From a virus, in IMG/VR virus record IMGVR_UViG_3300043777_000086, positions 42,153-106,152 of that record: a stretch of 64,000 nt of DNA. One strand, given 5' to 3'. This document shows positions 41,261 through 46,108 of the stretch, one piece after another; position 1 is the stretch's first letter; every line of letters begins with the position of its first letter. The position numbers and the translations under genes are program-made. The notes under the pieces are model-generated. The model did not search any database. It worked only from the letters and a program-made list of their open reading frames with translations, and was not told the DNA's origin.

Positions 41261-42244
41261 TTAGAACAGGGTTCCCGCCGTGCAGGTGAGCTTTGCGCAA
41301 GAGCGCGGATTGGGAAGCAAGAACTGGGTACCGACCAGGTACTGGCCGGCATAGTCGATCGAGTTAGCAGCTTCCTTGAAGCCTGTGAATCCCCACTGGA
41401 ATAACGGCACCGTCGAGAAATACCACTCGACGTACTCGGTATTCAGAAGCCACATAGCGCCCGTCGTTCCGGTGGGCGCGTACCGGTCCATCACAACCTC
41501 AGCCGCGTTGAACCGGAATGCCTGGAAGCCCATCTTCCCGACGTCAGTGTTGGTCATGTCCGGATACCGCTGCAATGGTTGCAGTGAGTTCCAGAACAGG
41601 TTCCATCCGTTCGGGGTGGCAGTGATCAGATCCACGTGATCAGCACCCCAGGCGCTCTGCGTGTATCCATTCTGCACGGCCGCCAAATTGAAGCTGGTGA
41701 GATTCGCCACATACGAGTTGAGGCCGCCGACAGAGCCAACCGCCATCACATCCGAACGCGTGATCCCGCCGATGGTCGGGTACAGATTGCCGTCATCGAC
41801 CCAGGCGTTTAACCCTTCGAGGTTAAGGCTCCTGCCTGGATCCTGTGAGGAGAGAAATAGCGCCGTTCCCAGCAACTCAGCCATGCGCATTCCGGCGTTC
41901 TTGAACTTCAGCTCGATCTGGCTGAAGATTGCCGGGTCGCCGTTATTCAGCATGGCGTCGAAGCCGTAAAGGGTCATATTGACCGCGTAGAGCTTCATGT
42001 TGAGCTGGAGCGCAGTCTCGGTCACGACGTAGTCGATGTCGAAAGCCTGGCCGCGGCCGACCGCATCACCCCACAGCTTCCCAACGGTCAGGACGCGCTG
42101 GATCTGGTTGCCGCCCTCAAAACGCTCCATCCGGCGCGTGTGTAGGCGCGTGAAGGTGGGGCTGTTCTTGTAGACAACCTCGGTCGCCTTCGGCGCGATA
42201 TAGACCGTCGTGAAAGCGTTTACGTCGACGATTGGAAATGCCAT
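41261..42244 (-). CDS. major capsid protein
   Basis: 327 aa after scaffold; GGNQI, EGL...DDG..Y..IGGITRS, NPR motifs. Confidence 0.85.
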   Translation of the reverse strand: MAFPIVDVNAFTTVYIAPKATEVVYKNSPTFTRLHTRRMERFEGGNQIQRVLTVGKLWGDAVGRGQAFDIDYVVTETALQLNMKLYAVNMTLYGFDAMLNNGDPAIFSQIELKFKNAGMRMAELLGTALFLSSQDPGRSLNLEGLNAWVDDGNLYPTIGGITRSDVMAVGSVGGLNSYVANLTSFNLAAVQNGYTQSAWGADHVDLITATPNGWNLFWNSLQPLQRYPDMTNTDVGKMGFQAFRFNAAEVVMDRYAPTGTTGAMWLLNTEYVEWYFSTVPLFQWGFTGFKEAANSIDYAGQYLVGTQFLLPNPRSCAKLTCTAGTLF

Positions 42245-42258
42245 TTCTCAGATCTCCC

Positions 42259-43182
42259 TTAGTTGGCCTTGCCCGGAATTTTCAGCTCGCCGCGCCGATA
42301 CATCTCCATCATCCTGGCGCCTAGTACGCCGCTGCCTAGTGGCGCATCGCCGGCCAGATCCGGCGGCGCGTCTGTCGCGTCAAGGCCCTGGATTTTGCGC
42401 TGGAACGGAGGTACCGAAGCACCCCTGCCGTCATCGGTGGGGGACGCCGCGGAGGTCGTCTTCGCATTGACCGCCTCTTCGCGTGTCTTCAGCTCTGCTT
42501 CCTTGGCCGCCAATTCAGCAGCCTTTACCTCGGAACGCTTAGGGGCGACGAAGTCGTTATAAGCAGCAGTGAAATTTTTAACCGGAGTCTTGCCGGTCGG
42601 ATCGCTCGGATCAACCAAGTAGCGTACCCCGTTCGAGACAACGAACTTCATGAACCCATCCATGTCGAAGTCGTCCGATCCGAACTCCTTCATGTACTTG
42701 AGTGGGATCGACGCGGCGCGCGTGAAGAAGAATTCCTGATTGAGGCTCTGCTGATTCAACTTACCGTCGACCGTCGACACTACCTCATCCTTGGCGCTCT
42801 TGACCAGCCCGGTCACGTCGTCCTTTTTGAGGTAGCCCTTGGCGATCAGTTCTTTTTCAAGCTCTGCAAAATCCATAGGGTCTCCAGTTGGCACGTACGT
42901 GCCGGCTTCCATCGAAGCTACCTTACCACGCAGCGTGGCGACTTCCTGCTCCGCCTGCCACTGCTGCTTGGTCATGCCGTGCTCTTCGTCCCAGTCGCGC
43001 GTTCTGAAATCTTCCCACTTCTTAACGAAACTGTCGGCGTTTTCGAATGCCGCCTGCGCTCTGTCGAAGTCGGACTTGAGAGTGACCACATTCCCCAGTG
43101 GGTATTTGGCGGTCACAGCCAGGAACGTAGACCGGTCCTCTTCGGCCATGTTGAGTTGTTTTGCCAGAGCCTCAAAATCCAT
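42259..43182 (-). CDS. scaffolding protein
   Basis: charged helical protein directly upstream of MCP. Confidence 0.7.
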   Translation of the reverse strand: MDFEALAKQLNMAEEDRSTFLAVTAKYPLGNVVTLKSDFDRAQAAFENADSFVKKWEDFRTRDWDEEHGMTKQQWQAEQEVATLRGKVASMEAGTYVPTGDPMDFAELEKELIAKGYLKKDDVTGLVKSAKDEVVSTVDGKLNQQSLNQEFFFTRAASIPLKYMKEFGSDDFDMDGFMKFVVSNGVRYLVDPSDPTGKTPVKNFTAAYNDFVAPKRSEVKAAELAAKEAELKTREEAVNAKTTSAASPTDDGRGASVPPFQRKIQGLDATDAPPDLAGDAPLGSGVLGARMMEMYRRGELKIPGKAN

Positions 43183-43190
43183 GGTTCACC

Positions 43191-43553
43191 TCACGCCGCC
43201 GCCGGTGCTGGAGCATCAGTCGGCGAGGTTGCGGGCGGCTGCTCAGGGGCGGCCGACGAGCCTTGCTGCATCTGTTGCATCGACTGCATCACGGTTTGCT
43301 GCATCGACTTGCCGACCTCGATCATTTTCGCCACATCGCCCATCATTGATGGCAGGGTCTTGTCCGCCATCTGCGCTATTTTACTCGTTGACTCGGCGAT
43401 CTTTTTGACCTCGGCCATGATCTCCTGAGTGGCGCGAATGGTGGCGGATTGAGACTCGGTCTGCATTTGTCCGACTCTGGACATCAGCGACTGAGGCGGG
43501 GCGTCTGATTGTTGACTGCGTATTTCGGGGGGATTAGGGAGCGACGGGGTCAT
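43191..43553 (-). CDS. Q/M/P-rich head-module protein
   Basis: position between portal and scaffold. Confidence 0.65.
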   Translation of the reverse strand: MTPSLPNPPEIRSQQSDAPPQSLMSRVGQMQTESQSATIRATQEIMAEVKKIAESTSKIAQMADKTLPSMMGDVAKMIEVGKSMQQTVMQSMQQMQQGSSAAPEQPPATSPTDAPAPAAA

Positions 43554-43558
43554 TGCTA

Positions 43559-43846
43559 CTAGTCGGCTCCGCTTTTGCTGACTACGCCCTTAGCTTGGTT
43601 GGCGAACGGCCAGGTGGCTCCGCCGCGCCGTAGTTCGACTTCATCCGCGCCGCCCATTTGGACCGGTCCTTTGTTGCCGGGGTCCGAATACGGAGGCTTG
43701 ATTTCCGATTCGTTGGTGTCGATGTAATCGGCGCCAGCGTATTGGAGTGGGCCACCAGACCGCTTCTGTGAATCCTCCGGTCGCAGGGGGCTGCTACCCA
43801 GATCGATTTCATCACTCGAGCTTTGAATGGTGCCTTTGTATGCCAT
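43559..43846 (-). CDS. small disordered head-module protein
   Basis: likely start MAYKGT. Confidence 0.6.
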   Translation of the reverse strand: MAYKGTIQSSSDEIDLGSSPLRPEDSQKRSGGPLQYAGADYIDTNESEIKPPYSDPGNKGPVQMGGADEVELRRGGATWPFANQAKGVVSKSGAD

Positions 43847-43880
43847 GAGGGTTACAACCTGGAATGCGGCGGGGTTGGAT

Positions 43881-43919
43881 ACGCGCAGGGCTCGTCCGTC
43901 GCTGTCCGAGCCCTGGCGT
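43881..43919 (-). other. GC-rich stem-loop in capsid-operon leader
   Basis: CAGGGCTCG (43886-43894) ... CGAGCCCTG (43907-43915), extendable by ACGC/GCGT. Confidence 0.6.
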
Positions 43920-43942
43920 GGTTGCGGGATCACCGCATCAGA

Positions 43943-43993
43943 CTACTTGCGGTGCTTTTTGCGCCGGTTGGCGATGGGGCCGAAACTGTTCAT
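43943..43993 (-). CDS. 16-aa basic micropeptide MNSFGPIANRRKKHRK
   Basis: AAGGAAGGGTGA RBS; paralogue of 44064-44123. Confidence 0.65.
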   Translation of the reverse strand: MNSFGPIANRRKKHRK

Positions 43994-44063
43994 TGCGTAT
44001 CACCCTTCCTTTCTCGCGACCGACAACGCCAGGCCGCGTAATTTCAACAAGATCGATGTGGCG

Positions 44064-44123
44064 CTACCGCATCTTCTTTTCGCGCTTTTTGCGCCGGTCG
44101 GCCGTTGGTCCGAAGGAAAACAT
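44064..44123 (-). CDS. 19-aa basic micropeptide MFSFGPTADRRKKREKKMR (23 aa if start 44135)
   Basis: GGAAAGGATGG RBS; paralogue of 43943-43993. Confidence 0.65.
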   Translation of the reverse strand: MFSFGPTADRRKKREKKMR

Positions 44124-44176
44124 CTGCGTATCCATCCTTTCCTGGCCCGACTACGCCAGGGCCTTTATTTCACATA

Positions 44177-44206
44177 AGAGTAATACGGAATTTGACGTAG
44201 CGTCAA
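44177..44206 (-). promoter_or_regulatory. candidate capsid-operon promoter with palindromic -35 overlap
   Basis: TTGACG-18 nt-TACTCT; TTGACG-N3-CGTCAA palindrome at 44192-44206. Confidence 0.5.
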
Positions 44207-44242
44207 GAAAATAAAATACTTGTGGACGATTAATGAGGAGGA

Positions 44243-46108
44243 TCAGGCGATTTGAGCGTTGCGTTGACCGCGGCTCATGCGCGGAGTACGGCCGGATTGA
44301 CCGCCCCCGATGATACCCGCCTGGCGTTCTTTAGTGATGCGCTGGATCTCCGCAGCCACGTCTCCGATGTCACACTTTTTGAGCAGAGTCTCCAGGCTTA
44401 AAGCCCCGGATCTGAATAAGTTAATCGCCTTGATCTGCTCTCGGTCCTTGTTTGCTCCGTGTAGTGATCCAGGGGATATCGTTACCGTGAAATTCTTCCA
44501 GAAGCTATCGCGCGCCTGGTCGGCGGGAACCATGTTAGCGGGATCCCAAACGTAGTCGTCCCAGGTAACTCCGTCGTTGCCAAGGATATAGTAGCGCTGC
44601 TTGCGCGGAAAGTACTGAAGGATATGACTGACGGCAATCTCCCCGGCATTGCGAAGCGAGACTTCTATATACCTTCCCTCTAATCGGATCGGGCCGCCTT
44701 GAGCGTCCCGGATCTGCTCCATCGTATCCCCGCCGGGAACCTGCTTCTTTCTAGAAATCGCCTGGACATCCATCGAGCCCGCGTGGCGGTCGAAAATAGA
44801 GAGTAGGTATTTGGCGTACTCAAACACGTAAGCCGGGAGGTTCGGCGGGTCTAGCGGCTTGACGTCTCCGATTTGAGCCGTCGCGTTCATGAGGAGTTTC
44901 TGGCCGGGGATCTCCGGGAAGAAGCGGTTCCAGTCGGCTTCATTTACCGATCCGCGCTTAGCGAGATAAGCCTGATTGATCGCTTTCTTGATCGTGTCGA
45001 ACACACCGGCTGAGATCTCGTTCATGCCCTGATTGAGAGGCATCAGGGTGCGGTACTTTGAGAGCCCACCCGGACCCCATACGATCGGATCGAGTACGAA
45101 CTTTACGAATGGGTAGGCGGTCGACCAATACGGAGAGGTGGTGTCGTAGAGATCCTCTCGGCCACCGAATACCAATAGGCGTTTACGGGGATAGAGCCGC
45201 TCGCCTCGCTTGACGGTGTACCAGTAATTATGCTGGTTGACGTCGTATCTCGGATCCTTAACGAGGACATCGTGCAGGGATTCATTGGTCTGCCCGTCCT
45301 CGAACCAGATCTCCTCGAGTTCCGCTACCGGGAAGGTGTCGGTGTCCCGGCTCATCCCGTATTGTGGCGCCCGGTCTTTCATCATGTGGCGCATTGATGG
45401 AGAAAGGCGGGACCATGAGTACTCCGACATCATCATGTTCGGGTGGTAATTCGATTCGTTTGGCTTGTATTGCTCCGACCCGCTACGCATCACCTTTTCA
45501 GCGACTGCGCGCCCCCACTTCTCGATAAAGTACTGAATGGGCTTGAATACCGTATAGCGAATCGCGCTCGATTCCTGGAGGTCCGAGGCGCAGTTGATTG
45601 GCATCACCGCGTCCATCCCGAGTGCGATTGCATTGAGACGGCCCAGCGACGCGTTGATCTTCCAGTACCCTACCGAGAGCATCGCGTGGTCGAGCACTTC
45701 CGCCAGCCGTAGATCGAGATCCGACTTGATCCACTCGTGGATAATCATCTTCGAGAGGATCTCGGCTGTCGTCGGCCAGGGTTCGGCCTTAACGGAAACA
45801 CTCGGGCGAACGTCGGTGTACTGCGCTAAGGTCTCTCGCCGCGCGCGGTTAAGGTGGTTGTCTACGAACTTGGATCTAAACTGGGGTCGCTTCGCCGGCC
45901 ACATCTCCCCCATCAGGGCTCGAATGTATTCGTTTAATTTAGCCCACTCCTTGTTTTGCTTCAGCTCCCTCGTGGCCTGTTCTCTAGTCCCCTCCCGGAA
46001 GGAGCGGAGCTTCGCTGAGTAACGATCCGTGAAGTCGGGAGATCCGCTCTTAGGTCGGTAGATAGGTCCGCGCGGAGCGTTATCAATGAGGGTGGAGCTG
46101 GGGGTCAT
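44243..46108 (-). CDS. portal protein
   Basis: 621 aa downstream of terminase; YPFV......WG.G....L..L...N pattern of podoviral portals. Confidence 0.85.
   Translation of the reverse strand: MTPSSTLIDNAPRGPIYRPKSGSPDFTDRYSAKLRSFREGTREQATRELKQNKEWAKLNEYIRALMGEMWPAKRPQFRSKFVDNHLNRARRETLAQYTDVRPSVSVKAEPWPTTAEILSKMIIHEWIKSDLDLRLAEVLDHAMLSVGYWKINASLGRLNAIALGMDAVMPINCASDLQESSAIRYTVFKPIQYFIEKWGRAVAEKVMRSGSEQYKPNESNYHPNMMMSEYSWSRLSPSMRHMMKDRAPQYGMSRDTDTFPVAELEEIWFEDGQTNESLHDVLVKDPRYDVNQHNYWYTVKRGERLYPRKRLLVFGGREDLYDTTSPYWSTAYPFVKFVLDPIVWGPGGLSKYRTLMPLNQGMNEISAGVFDTIKKAINQAYLAKRGSVNEADWNRFFPEIPGQKLLMNATAQIGDVKPLDPPNLPAYVFEYAKYLLSIFDRHAGSMDVQAISRKKQVPGGDTMEQIRDAQGGPIRLEGRYIEVSLRNAGEIAVSHILQYFPRKQRYYILGNDGVTWDDYVWDPANMVPADQARDSFWKNFTVTISPGSLHGANKDREQIKAINLFRSGALSLETLLKKCDIGDVAAEIQRITKERQAGIIGGGQSGRTPRMSRGQRNAQIA

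What the first reader, a model, noticed from the sequence alone, without database searches (positions are those of the whole stretch)
43943..44135. Two tandem paralogous Arg/Lys-rich micropeptides heading the capsid operon
Seen: MFSFGPTADRRKKREKKMR and MNSFGPIANRRKKHRK, each with a strong RBS and a shared GATACGCA before the ATG; core SFGPxAxRRKK conserved despite codon changes (TCC/AGT, GGA/GGC, CCA/CCC). They lie between portal and scaffold, just after a promoter candidate. Inference: highly expressed protamine-like DNA-neutralising virion peptides (compare microvirus J), or regulatory leader peptides.
Basis: partly seen in the sequence, partly recalled or inferred. Interest (0 to 1): 0.75.

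Follow-up and report, generated by a model that had tools for sequence, protein, structure and literature searches.

The report
Conserved polybasic phage head-operon micropeptides
Two tiny (19 and 16 amino-acid), strongly positively charged genes at the start of an uncultured phage's capsid-gene cluster are real, conserved protein-coding genes of an undescribed family. They most likely make nucleic-acid-binding peptides for the virus head, but that function is untested.

Summary
On the minus strand, between the portal gene (fold-verified) and the scaffold-like and capsid genes of a complete 106-kb phage genome, lie two tandem paralogous ORFs. Each has a Shine-Dalgarno site and a net charge of +6. 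They are the only such ORFs in the genome.

A phage found only through portal similarity (76% identity) has both ORFs; the second differs by one residue and several silent changes. The 13-codon core recurs in at least five further uncultured lineages whose portal, terminase and capsid proteins are only 22-54% identical to the window's. Differences sit at third codon positions. None was found in 185,579 bacterial and archaeal genomes, in cultured phages, or in Pfam, PHROGs, NCBIfam or Rfam.

The unit is built the same way across lineages: a sigma-70-like promoter, SD, the short ORF or ORFs, then a very stable hairpin. Capsid relatives lacking this family carry other polybasic short ORFs, or 53-72 aa proteins with polybasic tails, at the same place.

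My best reading is abundant trans-acting polycations for head assembly or packaged DNA (about 0.4). A host or RNA target (about 0.3) and a leader-peptide role (about 0.1) are not excluded. This scan had noted other polybasic microprotein cassettes on unrelated phage DNA; those notes are leads only.

The parts
44243..46108 (-). Portal protein gene (621 aa), immediately upstream of the micropeptide unit
   Evidence: Weak PHROG portal hit. The AlphaFold model from a 12-sequence alignment matches solved podovirus portals (Pa223, SU10, GP4, Pan3, N4, P22, T7) at Foldseek E 1e-16 to 1e-10.
44177..44206 (-). Sigma-70-like promoter candidate: -35 TTGACG (44206-44201), 18-nt spacer, -10 TACTCT (44182-44177). 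The -35 lies inside a perfect 15-bp palindrome (44192-44206).
   Evidence: Read. The same TTGACR / 18 nt / TAnnnT layout lies 71-98 nt upstream of the micropeptide ATG in L019, L003 and L049, with a TTGACA / 18 nt / TTTAAT version in L014. It was not called by the consensus scanner. The palindrome is unique in the window.
44141..44163 (-). 5' hairpin preceding peptide 1 (5-6 bp stem, 8-10 nt loop), near the predicted transcript 5' end
   Evidence: -12.6 kcal/mol, z -1.1, not significant on its own. Same place and loop in copy 2 and in L002, with different stem sequences.
44135..44143 (-). Shine-Dalgarno region of peptide 1
   Evidence: duplex with the 16S tail -7.8 kcal/mol, top 24% of genome ORF starts.
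44064..44123 (-). Micropeptide 1: 19 codons plus stop, net charge +6
   Evidence: Paralogue of peptide 2. Its counterpart in L002 stays open despite a 30-nt in-frame insertion.
44015..44038 (-). 5' hairpin preceding peptide 2 (7-bp stem, 10-nt loop nearly identical to copy 1)
   Evidence: -13.8 kcal/mol. The L002 counterpart keeps the loop with a fully different 6-bp stem.
43999..44014 (-). Extended Shine-Dalgarno region of peptide 2
   Evidence: -13.5 kcal/mol, strongest 2% of ORF starts in the genome.
43943..43993 (-). Micropeptide 2: 16 codons plus stop, net charge +6
   Evidence: The L002 orthologue differs by 1 residue, with silent changes in five other codons (Ser, Phe, Gly, Pro, Ala).
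43881..43937 (-). Small hairpin, then a very stable 13-bp hairpin after the peptide 2 stop. No clear U-tract in the window.
   Evidence: -34.4 kcal/mol, z -4.76, 0 of 200 shuffles as stable. An equivalent stable hairpin follows the last micropeptide in nearly all lineages, several with U-rich tails.
43559..43846 (-). Next gene, 95-aa acidic Gly-rich protein with a repeated short motif. Start taken at ATG 43846 by homology.
   Evidence: No Pfam or PHROG family.
43191..43553 (-). 120-aa acidic Pro/Gln-rich protein conserved in relatives
42259..43182 (-). 307-aa scaffold-like protein (named by inference)
   Evidence: Immediately upstream of the capsid gene and acidic. All-helical, low-confidence model. 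Conserved in relatives. No family hit and no similarity to the Mx8 gene at that position.
41261..42244 (-). Major capsid protein (327 aa)
   Evidence: phrog_9953 at E 2.7e-21. 28% identity to the Mx8 major head protein.

Best explanation
Two duplicated, self-contained mini-genes encode 19- and 16-residue peptides that act in trans as polycations on nucleic acid during head assembly or DNA packaging. Shown: each gene has its own SD; they are protein-coding under strong purifying selection; they belong to a family of 16-29 aa peptides with a conserved N-terminal core (Met-x-Ser/Asn-Phe-Gly-Pro-Ile/Val/Thr-Ala-Asn/Asp/Glu-Arg-Arg-Lys-Lys) followed by a variable Lys/Arg/His tail (net +6 to +9); and they always sit after the portal gene and ahead of the scaffold-like and capsid genes. 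Inferred: the unit (sigma-70-like promoter, 5' hairpin, strong SD, short ORF, very stable 3' hairpin) yields a short, stable, abundant late message, and the tandem duplication raises the dose. Also inferred: the polybasic tail binds phosphate backbones, and the short hydrophobic N-terminal motif docks the peptide to a conserved surface, so the peptides enter or accompany the filled head as genetically encoded counter-ions or internal peptides. This is analogous in function, not homologous, to phiX174 J, adenovirus mu and the T4 internal proteins.
For: Coding and selected: the L002 phage, found through portal similarity alone, keeps both ORFs. The peptide 2 orthologue has 1 amino-acid change and several silent ones, including a Ser codon-family switch. 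Across 8 family members the differences pile up at third codon positions, with dS saturated and dN 0.03-0.25. Specificity of the motif: the pattern gave only chance-like hits (long ORFs, no SD) in 596 Gb of prokaryote genomes. In viral and metagenome contigs its true hits are all 16-20 aa SD-led ORFs ending in a basic tail. Fixed place in the head module: portal, then 0-2 inserted genes, then the micropeptide(s), then small acidic proteins, then the scaffold-like gene, then the capsid gene. Charge is the conserved property of the slot. Of 36 loci retrieved by capsid-protein similarity, about half have an SD-led polybasic short ORF about 1.7-2 kb upstream of the capsid gene. These include diverged family members, an unrelated second family, a 12-aa peptide and Glu/Lys-rich 42-43 aa forms, with up to 4 in tandem. 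Eight representatives of the rest carry 53-72 aa proteins with polybasic C-tails there. Dosage signals: tandem duplication; the peptide 2 SD is in the top 2% of the genome; promoter-like sites in five lineages; stable 3' hairpins with z -2 to -4.8. The neighbouring head proteins are acidic. Precedents: phiX174 J is a DNA-binding protein that coats the DNA and lines the capsid interior (PMC13386984); T4 heads hold about 1,370 internal protein subunits loaded through a roughly 10-aa N-terminal tag (PMC7697877).
Against: There is no direct evidence of translation, virion location or DNA binding. There is no homology to any known virion peptide. The N-terminal motif is not shared by any other ORF of the genome, so it is not a general capsid-targeting tag of the T4 kind, and no prohead protease gene was identified in the head module. 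The core stays 11-12 of 13 residues identical in phages whose portal, terminase and capsid proteins are only 22-26% identical. A peptide docking onto fast-evolving head proteins would be expected to drift with them, so a conserved host or RNA partner is a serious alternative. Cultured distant relatives (Mx8, a Bradyrhizobium phage) manage without such a gene. Meaningful charge neutralisation of 106 kb would need thousands of copies per head.
Confidence: 0.4

Rival explanations
1. The peptides are real and trans-acting, but their target is a conserved host or RNA component such as the ribosome, mRNA or tRNA, RNA polymerase, a nuclease or a defence protein. They would be made at the onset of late expression to boost or protect late gene expression, and would not be virion components.
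For: The N-terminal core is far better conserved than any head protein: 11-12 of 13 residues against 22-26% identity for portal, terminase and capsid proteins. That is what a conserved non-phage partner predicts. The unit has its own promoter-like site and terminator-like hairpin, like an autonomous cassette. Earlier notes of this scan read other phage polybasic microproteins as RNA- or ribosome-binding (leads only).
Against: The place inside the head-morphogenesis module is constant across deep divergence, whereas host-directed accessory genes are usually sporadic and sit in early regions. No host homologue of the motif exists in 185,579 species genomes. There is no match to small ribosomal protein models. 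Replacement by unrelated polybasic proteins at the same slot argues for a charge-based rather than a motif-specific role.
Confidence: 0.3
2. The ORFs are cis-acting leader peptides. Their translation just upstream of a terminator-like hairpin would set how much transcription or translation reads through into the capsid genes, by pyrBI-type translation-coupled attenuation or by ribosome stalling on the polybasic stretch.
For: The ORFs are the first reading frames after a promoter-like site and are followed within 0-28 nt by a very stable hairpin, U-rich in several lineages. A terminating ribosome would overlap the hairpin base in some lineages (L014, L018, L019, L016, L002).
Against: Amino-acid-level selection on the N-terminal part, with a tail of variable length before the stop, does not fit a stall site at a fixed distance. 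No competing anti-terminator pairing appears in the minimum-energy or centroid fold of the 341-nt leader. The window hairpin lacks a U-tract. There are two tandem copies, each with its own SD. Relatives hold 40-72 aa basic proteins in the same slot.
Confidence: 0.12
3. The ORFs are incidental. The conserved thing would be a duplicated non-coding element (RNA hairpin, promoter or operator repeat, or an antisense small RNA with the plus-strand terminator-like hairpins), and the peptides are never made.
For: Each copy carries a hairpin with a near-identical 10-nt loop and differing stems. On the plus strand two terminator-like sites overlap the unit.
Against: Third-position-biased divergence with the reading frame, start, SD and stop preserved in lineages with saturated silent sites. 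An in-frame 30-nt insertion in the L002 copy. The 5' hairpins are not significant individually and their sequence is not conserved outside the closest relatives. The plus-strand T-run is absent in L002. There is no Rfam match.
Confidence: 0.03

Closest known systems
Microvirus (phiX174, G4, alpha3) DNA-binding protein J
   Same: A separately encoded, very small, highly basic peptide made with the capsid genes. [quoted passage not shown] From my own knowledge, J has a basic part plus a short hydrophobic anchoring part, the same two-part logic as here.
   Different: No sequence similarity and no family match. J belongs to T=1 ssDNA phages that package during replication, whereas this is a 106-kb dsDNA genome with terminase and portal. 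The polarity is reversed: here the hydrophobic motif is N-terminal and the basic tail C-terminal. Virion location is not shown here.
Adenovirus core peptide mu (from my own knowledge: about 19 residues, Arg-rich, condenses the dsDNA genome)
   Same: Same size class and charge density, in a dsDNA virus that packages into a preformed capsid.
   Different: Mu is cut out of a longer precursor by the viral protease. Here the peptide is directly encoded, with its own SD and stop. There is no homology, and the host is eukaryotic.
Phage T4 internal proteins IPI, IPII, IPIII with the N-terminal capsid targeting sequence
   Same: Abundant proteins packed inside the head with the DNA, loaded through a roughly 10-residue N-terminal tag (PMC7697877). 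The conserved N-terminal 8-9 residues here could play a comparable docking role.
   Different: T4 internal proteins are about 10-20 kDa (my own knowledge), share the tag with other packaged proteins and lose it to the prohead protease. Here the motif occurs in no other ORF of the genome, no protease gene was identified in the head module, and the peptide is little more than tag plus tail.
Very small basic ribosomal proteins (bL34, bL36, bS22, bTHX)
   Same: Size and Lys/Arg/His-rich make-up. Some phages carry small ribosomal protein genes (my own knowledge).
   Different: No match to NCBIfam or Pfam models. No counterpart in 185,579 prokaryote genomes. The location is in the head module.
Phage 'morons' (autonomous promoter-gene-terminator units inserted between late genes, as in HK97 and lambda; my own knowledge)
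   Same: The same unit anatomy: own promoter-like site, one short gene, a terminator-like hairpin, set between two late genes.
   Different: Morons are sporadic and usually serve lysogens. This unit keeps one fixed place across phages that have diverged to 22% portal identity, with saturated silent sites.

Membership tests
Microvirus protein J family | Detectable sequence or profile similarity to J proteins | tested here: not met
   No PHROG, Pfam or NCBIfam family for members of 20 aa or more. tblastn against 50,697 phage records found nothing.
Microvirus protein J family | Encoded by an ssDNA microvirus next to the F/G capsid genes | tested here: not met
   The genome is 106 kb with terminal repeats, a terminase, a portal and a major capsid protein matching tailed-phage head proteins (phrog_9953, Mx8).
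Microvirus protein J family | Present in virions and bound to packaged DNA | not testable with these tools
   Needs virion proteomics or a structure.
T4-type capsid-targeted internal proteins | N-terminal targeting tag shared by several packaged proteins of the same phage | tested here: not met
   A six-frame motif scan of the whole genome finds the N-terminal motif only in the two micropeptides.
T4-type capsid-targeted internal proteins | Tag removed by a prohead maturation protease | tested here: inconclusive
   No protease family hit among the head-module genes scanned, but several small genes there have no family at all.
Attenuator or arrest leader peptides (pyrBI-, trp-, SecM-type) | Mutually exclusive RNA structures linking the ORF to the downstream terminator | tested here: not met
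   The minimum-energy and centroid folds of the 341-nt region pair the 3' hairpin only with itself.
Attenuator or arrest leader peptides (pyrBI-, trp-, SecM-type) | Fixed spacing between the conserved peptide motif or stop and the regulated structure | tested here: not met
   Tail length after the core varies from 3 to about 16 residues. The stop-to-hairpin distance varies from 0 to 28 nt.
Attenuator or arrest leader peptides (pyrBI-, trp-, SecM-type) | Intrinsic terminator (hairpin plus U-tract) after the ORF | tested here: inconclusive
   The hairpin is present and very stable everywhere. U-rich tails occur in L002, L016, L018, L029 and L031 but not in the window, L003 or L019.
Known RNA families (Rfam 15) | Covariance-model match | tested here: not met
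   No match at E up to 10 in 43000-45000, both strands.
Small basic ribosomal proteins | Match to the curated family models, or a cellular homologue | tested here: not met
   (no hits). (no cellular copy of the motif as a short ORF).
Protein-coding gene (general) | Reading frame, start, SD and stop conserved with excess silent change in independent relatives | tested here: met

The most novel reading that the evidence does not exclude
Tailed dsDNA phages of this uncultured clade encode their own protamine-like counter-ions. Directly translated 16-29-residue peptides, made in bulk from a dedicated mini-gene, would dock through an 8-residue N-terminal motif and enter the head to neutralise and organise the packaged genome. 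It would be the first genetically encoded micropeptide DNA condenser known in tailed phages, invisible to standard gene callers.
Probability: 0.3. Interest if true: 0.8.

Novelty: new variant of a known kind. Interest (0 to 1): 0.62.

Why it matters
Genes this short fall below the length cut-off of standard gene finders, so a whole conserved gene family, the best-conserved element of this phage clade's head module, is absent from protein databases and annotations. If the peptides are packaged polycations, they would show that some tailed phages do not rely only on host cations and polyamines to offset DNA charge during packaging. That bears on packaging energetics, capsid pressure and ejection. 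If instead they target a host or RNA component, they are a new class of phage micro-effectors tied to late gene expression. Either way the unit is compact and well defined (promoter, SD, 16-19 codons, hairpin), and it is easily tested with synthetic peptides.

Tried and rejected
- **Rfam:** a scan of 43000-45000 on both strands found nothing.
- **Cultured phages:** DNA search found no match. tblastn with a 20-aa family member found no match.
- **Distant cultured relatives:** those found by capsid protein (Mx8, Bradyrhizobium phage ppBjS10J-1) have no equivalent short ORF.
- **Large protein database:** A fused or longer form could therefore not be looked for there.
- **Profile libraries:** PHROGs, Pfam and NCBIfam on family members of 20 aa or more gave nothing.
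- **Prokaryote genomes:** the motif scan returned 5 hits, all long or SD-less frames taken as chance. No prophage or host copy was found.
- **Shared capsid-targeting tag:** the idea was rejected because the motif is unique to the two peptides.
- **Programmed frameshift at the Lys codons:** rejected because the slippery-looking run is not kept in L003 or L014.
- **Antisense small RNA ending at the plus-strand terminator-like sites:** rejected because the T-run is not conserved in L002.
- **Specific peptide-binding RNA site (boxB-like) in the 5' hairpin:** not supported, because the loop is conserved only among the closest relatives.
- **Literature:** two full-text searches for such phage peptides gave nothing relevant.
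- **Complex prediction:** not attempted, because the peptides are shorter than the 30 residues that tool asks for.

Full report
**What is there**

The finding lies on the minus strand. The window is part of a complete 106,152-bp virus record with direct terminal repeats. It reads 5' to 3' on the minus strand as follows:
- the stop of a 621-aa gene (44243);
- a promoter-like site (TTGACG at 44206-44201, an 18-nt spacer, TACTCT at 44182-44177);
- a small hairpin (44163-44141) and a purine-rich SD;
- peptide 1 (ATG at 44123, 19 codons, stop at 44066-44064);
- a second hairpin (44038-44015) and an extended SD;
- peptide 2 (ATG at 43993, 16 codons, stop at 43945-43943);
- a very stable hairpin (43919-43881);
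- the next gene (ATG at 43846).

The two hairpin-SD-ORF units align at 77% column identity. Both peptides carry a net charge of +6.

**Is it more than chance?**

A scan for ATG-started ORFs of 10-45 codons with at least one third Lys+Arg and an SD finds only these two in the 64-kb window, plus one Arg-only frame. A looser scan of the whole 106-kb genome adds nothing comparable. Pairing of the upstream region with the conserved 16S rRNA tail ranks peptide 2 in the strongest 2% of all ORF starts of the genome and peptide 1 in the top 24%. The alternative upstream ATG at 44135 ranks poorly.

**Context**

- The gene upstream of the portal region matches terminase large-subunit PHROGs.
- The 621-aa gene is a portal. 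The PHROG hit is weak and there are no Pfam or PDB sequence hits. However, an AlphaFold model built on 12 relatives matches solved podovirus portals at Foldseek E-values from 1e-16 to 1e-10.
- Downstream lie a 95-aa and a 120-aa acidic protein, and then a 307-aa acidic protein. The 307-aa protein is modelled as all-helical with low confidence. I call it scaffold-like from its position and make-up only.
- Next comes the major capsid protein (phrog_9953, E 2.7e-21; 28% identity to the Mx8 head protein).

**Relatives**

- A portal-based search of IMG/VR found one close relative, L002, with 76% portal identity. It carries both short ORFs at the same place. The second differs from peptide 2 by one residue and has silent changes in five other codons. 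The first has diverged and holds a 30-nt in-frame insertion, yet it stays open.
- A degenerate DNA pattern for the core (Met, two free codons, Phe-Gly-Pro-x-Ala-x-Arg-Arg-Lys-Lys) was scanned across three collections.
  - In the viral collection it found 4 stretches on 4 contig records: the L002 contig again, L003, and L004/L005, which are identical over the region read.
  - In the metagenome collection it found three further true records, besides the metagenome copy (L014) of the L004 contig.
  - Every true hit is a 16-20-codon ORF with a good SD that ends in a Lys/Arg/His tail.
  - The three other metagenome hits, and all five hits in 596 Gb of prokaryote genomes, are long or SD-less frames. 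They serve as an empirical null.
- Residues the pattern left free are also conserved (position 3 Ser/Asn, position 7 Ile/Val/Thr, position 9 Asn/Asp/Glu). Nucleotide differences concentrate at third codon positions, with silent sites saturated and dN at 0.03-0.25.
- These carriers are far apart. Identity to the window's proteins is 38% (portal) and 54% (capsid) for L003. For L014 it is only 22%, 26% and 22% for portal, terminase and capsid, and for the lineage of contigs L015 and L018 (identical peptide and SD region) it is 22% (portal) and 26% (capsid). The micropeptide core is thus the best-conserved coding element of the head module.

**The slot**

A capsid-protein alignment retrieved 36 loci.
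- About half have an SD-led polybasic short ORF roughly 1.7-2 kb upstream of the capsid gene. These include diverged members of the same family (L019, L031-33, L047, L049; alignment), a second unrelated basic family (L003, L049), a 12-codon peptide (L030) and Glu/Lys-rich 42-43-codon forms (L022-27). L049 has four in tandem.
- Eight representatives of the remaining loci carry 53-72 aa proteins with polybasic C-terminal tails at that place. One of these is a sub-threshold DUF3008 match.
- Cultured distant relatives (Mx8, a Bradyrhizobium phage) have nothing comparable.

So the property that persists in this slot is a small, strongly basic product. The Phe-Gly-Pro family is one deeply conserved solution.

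**Expression signals**

- The TTGACR / 18 nt / TAnnnT layout lies 71-98 nt upstream of the ATG in the window, L019, L003 and L049, and L014 has a TTGACA / 18 nt / TTTAAT version. These are consensus matches only.
- The hairpin after the last micropeptide is exceptionally stable in the window (-34.4 kcal/mol, z -4.76). An equivalent hairpin is present in nearly every lineage (z about -2 to -3.5), some with U-rich tails.
- The 5' hairpins are individually unremarkable. In the window's two copies and in L002 they share a 10-nt loop with three different stems, but there are too few sequences to call covariation.
- I read the unit as a short, stable, abundant message. This is inference.

**Mechanism**

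I rank a trans-acting polycation working on nucleic acid in head assembly or packaging first, at about 0.4. Four things support it:
- the fixed place in the morphogenesis module;
- the dosage signals;
- the acidic neighbours;
- the repeated non-homologous replacement by other polybasic products.

PhiX174 J (PMC13386984) and the T4 internal proteins with their N-terminal targeting tag (PMC7697877) are functional precedents.

Against it: nothing shows virion location. The N-terminal motif is not a shared tag. Its extreme conservation against a background of highly diverged head proteins fits a conserved host or RNA partner at least as well, and I give that rival about 0.3.

A cis-acting leader role gets about 0.12. 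It is weakened by selection on the amino-acid sequence, by variable tail length and stop-to-hairpin spacing, and by the lack of competing RNA pairing. The two independent copies and the 40-72 aa occupants of the slot elsewhere also count against it.

A purely non-coding element gets about 0.03.

**Known families**

No family membership can be claimed. There is no match in Pfam, PHROGs, NCBIfam or Rfam, no cultured-phage match and no cellular copy. The resemblance to J, adenovirus mu and the T4 internal proteins is one of proposed function only.

Earlier notes of this scan describe other polybasic microprotein cassettes in unrelated phages. I used them as leads for the rival reading, not as evidence.

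**Limits**

- The peptides are too short for the large protein-database search and for the complex-prediction tool.
- The host is unknown.

Noticed in passing
L002 5850-6260; L019 3700-4100; L003 2485-3600 and 5474-6307: The junction between the portal gene and the micropeptide unit is an insertion hot spot. L002 has a small Cys/His-rich ORF and an oppositely oriented helix-turn-helix (excisionase/MerR-like) ORF there. L019 has an opposite-strand ORF. L003 has a 277-aa gene there, and a 371-aa HNH-like gene lies just upstream of its portal. The window has none of these.
   Followed up: no
L003 6583-6663; L049 2947-3915: A second, unrelated family of SD-led polybasic short ORFs (24-36 codons, sharing a short Tyr-Gly-Arg motif) follows the first micropeptide in L003 and occurs several times in tandem in L049.
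   Followed up: partly
L014 6880-7056 (same as L004 2960-3138): In this distant carrier, a textbook terminator-like hairpin with a T-run lies between the promoter-like site and the micropeptide SD. A short leader RNA or an antitermination step may precede the micropeptide there.
   Followed up: no
window 44192-44206: A perfect 15-bp palindrome (6+3+6) overlaps the -35 of the promoter candidate and so places a -35-like hexamer on both strands. It is unique in the window. It may be an operator, or chance.
   Followed up: partly
window 43559-43846 and homologues (L002 6654-6944, L019 4394-4705): The 95-aa acidic protein after the micropeptides contains three copies of a short Lys-Gly-Thr/Ser-Phe-Gln...Gly-Gly-Ala-Asp motif and has no known family. 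Shorter relatives with one motif copy occur in L016 and L021.
   Followed up: no
window 44055-44073 and 44140-44161, plus strand: Two terminator-like hairpins on the plus strand are the reverse complements of parts of the micropeptide unit. No plus-strand gene is nearby, and the T-run is not conserved in L002.
   Followed up: partly
L028 2280-2483; L037 3701-3919; L035 3003-3209: Capsid relatives without the micropeptide carry 67-72 aa proteins with polybasic C-tails in the same slot. The L028 protein is a near-threshold DUF3008 match.
   Followed up: partly
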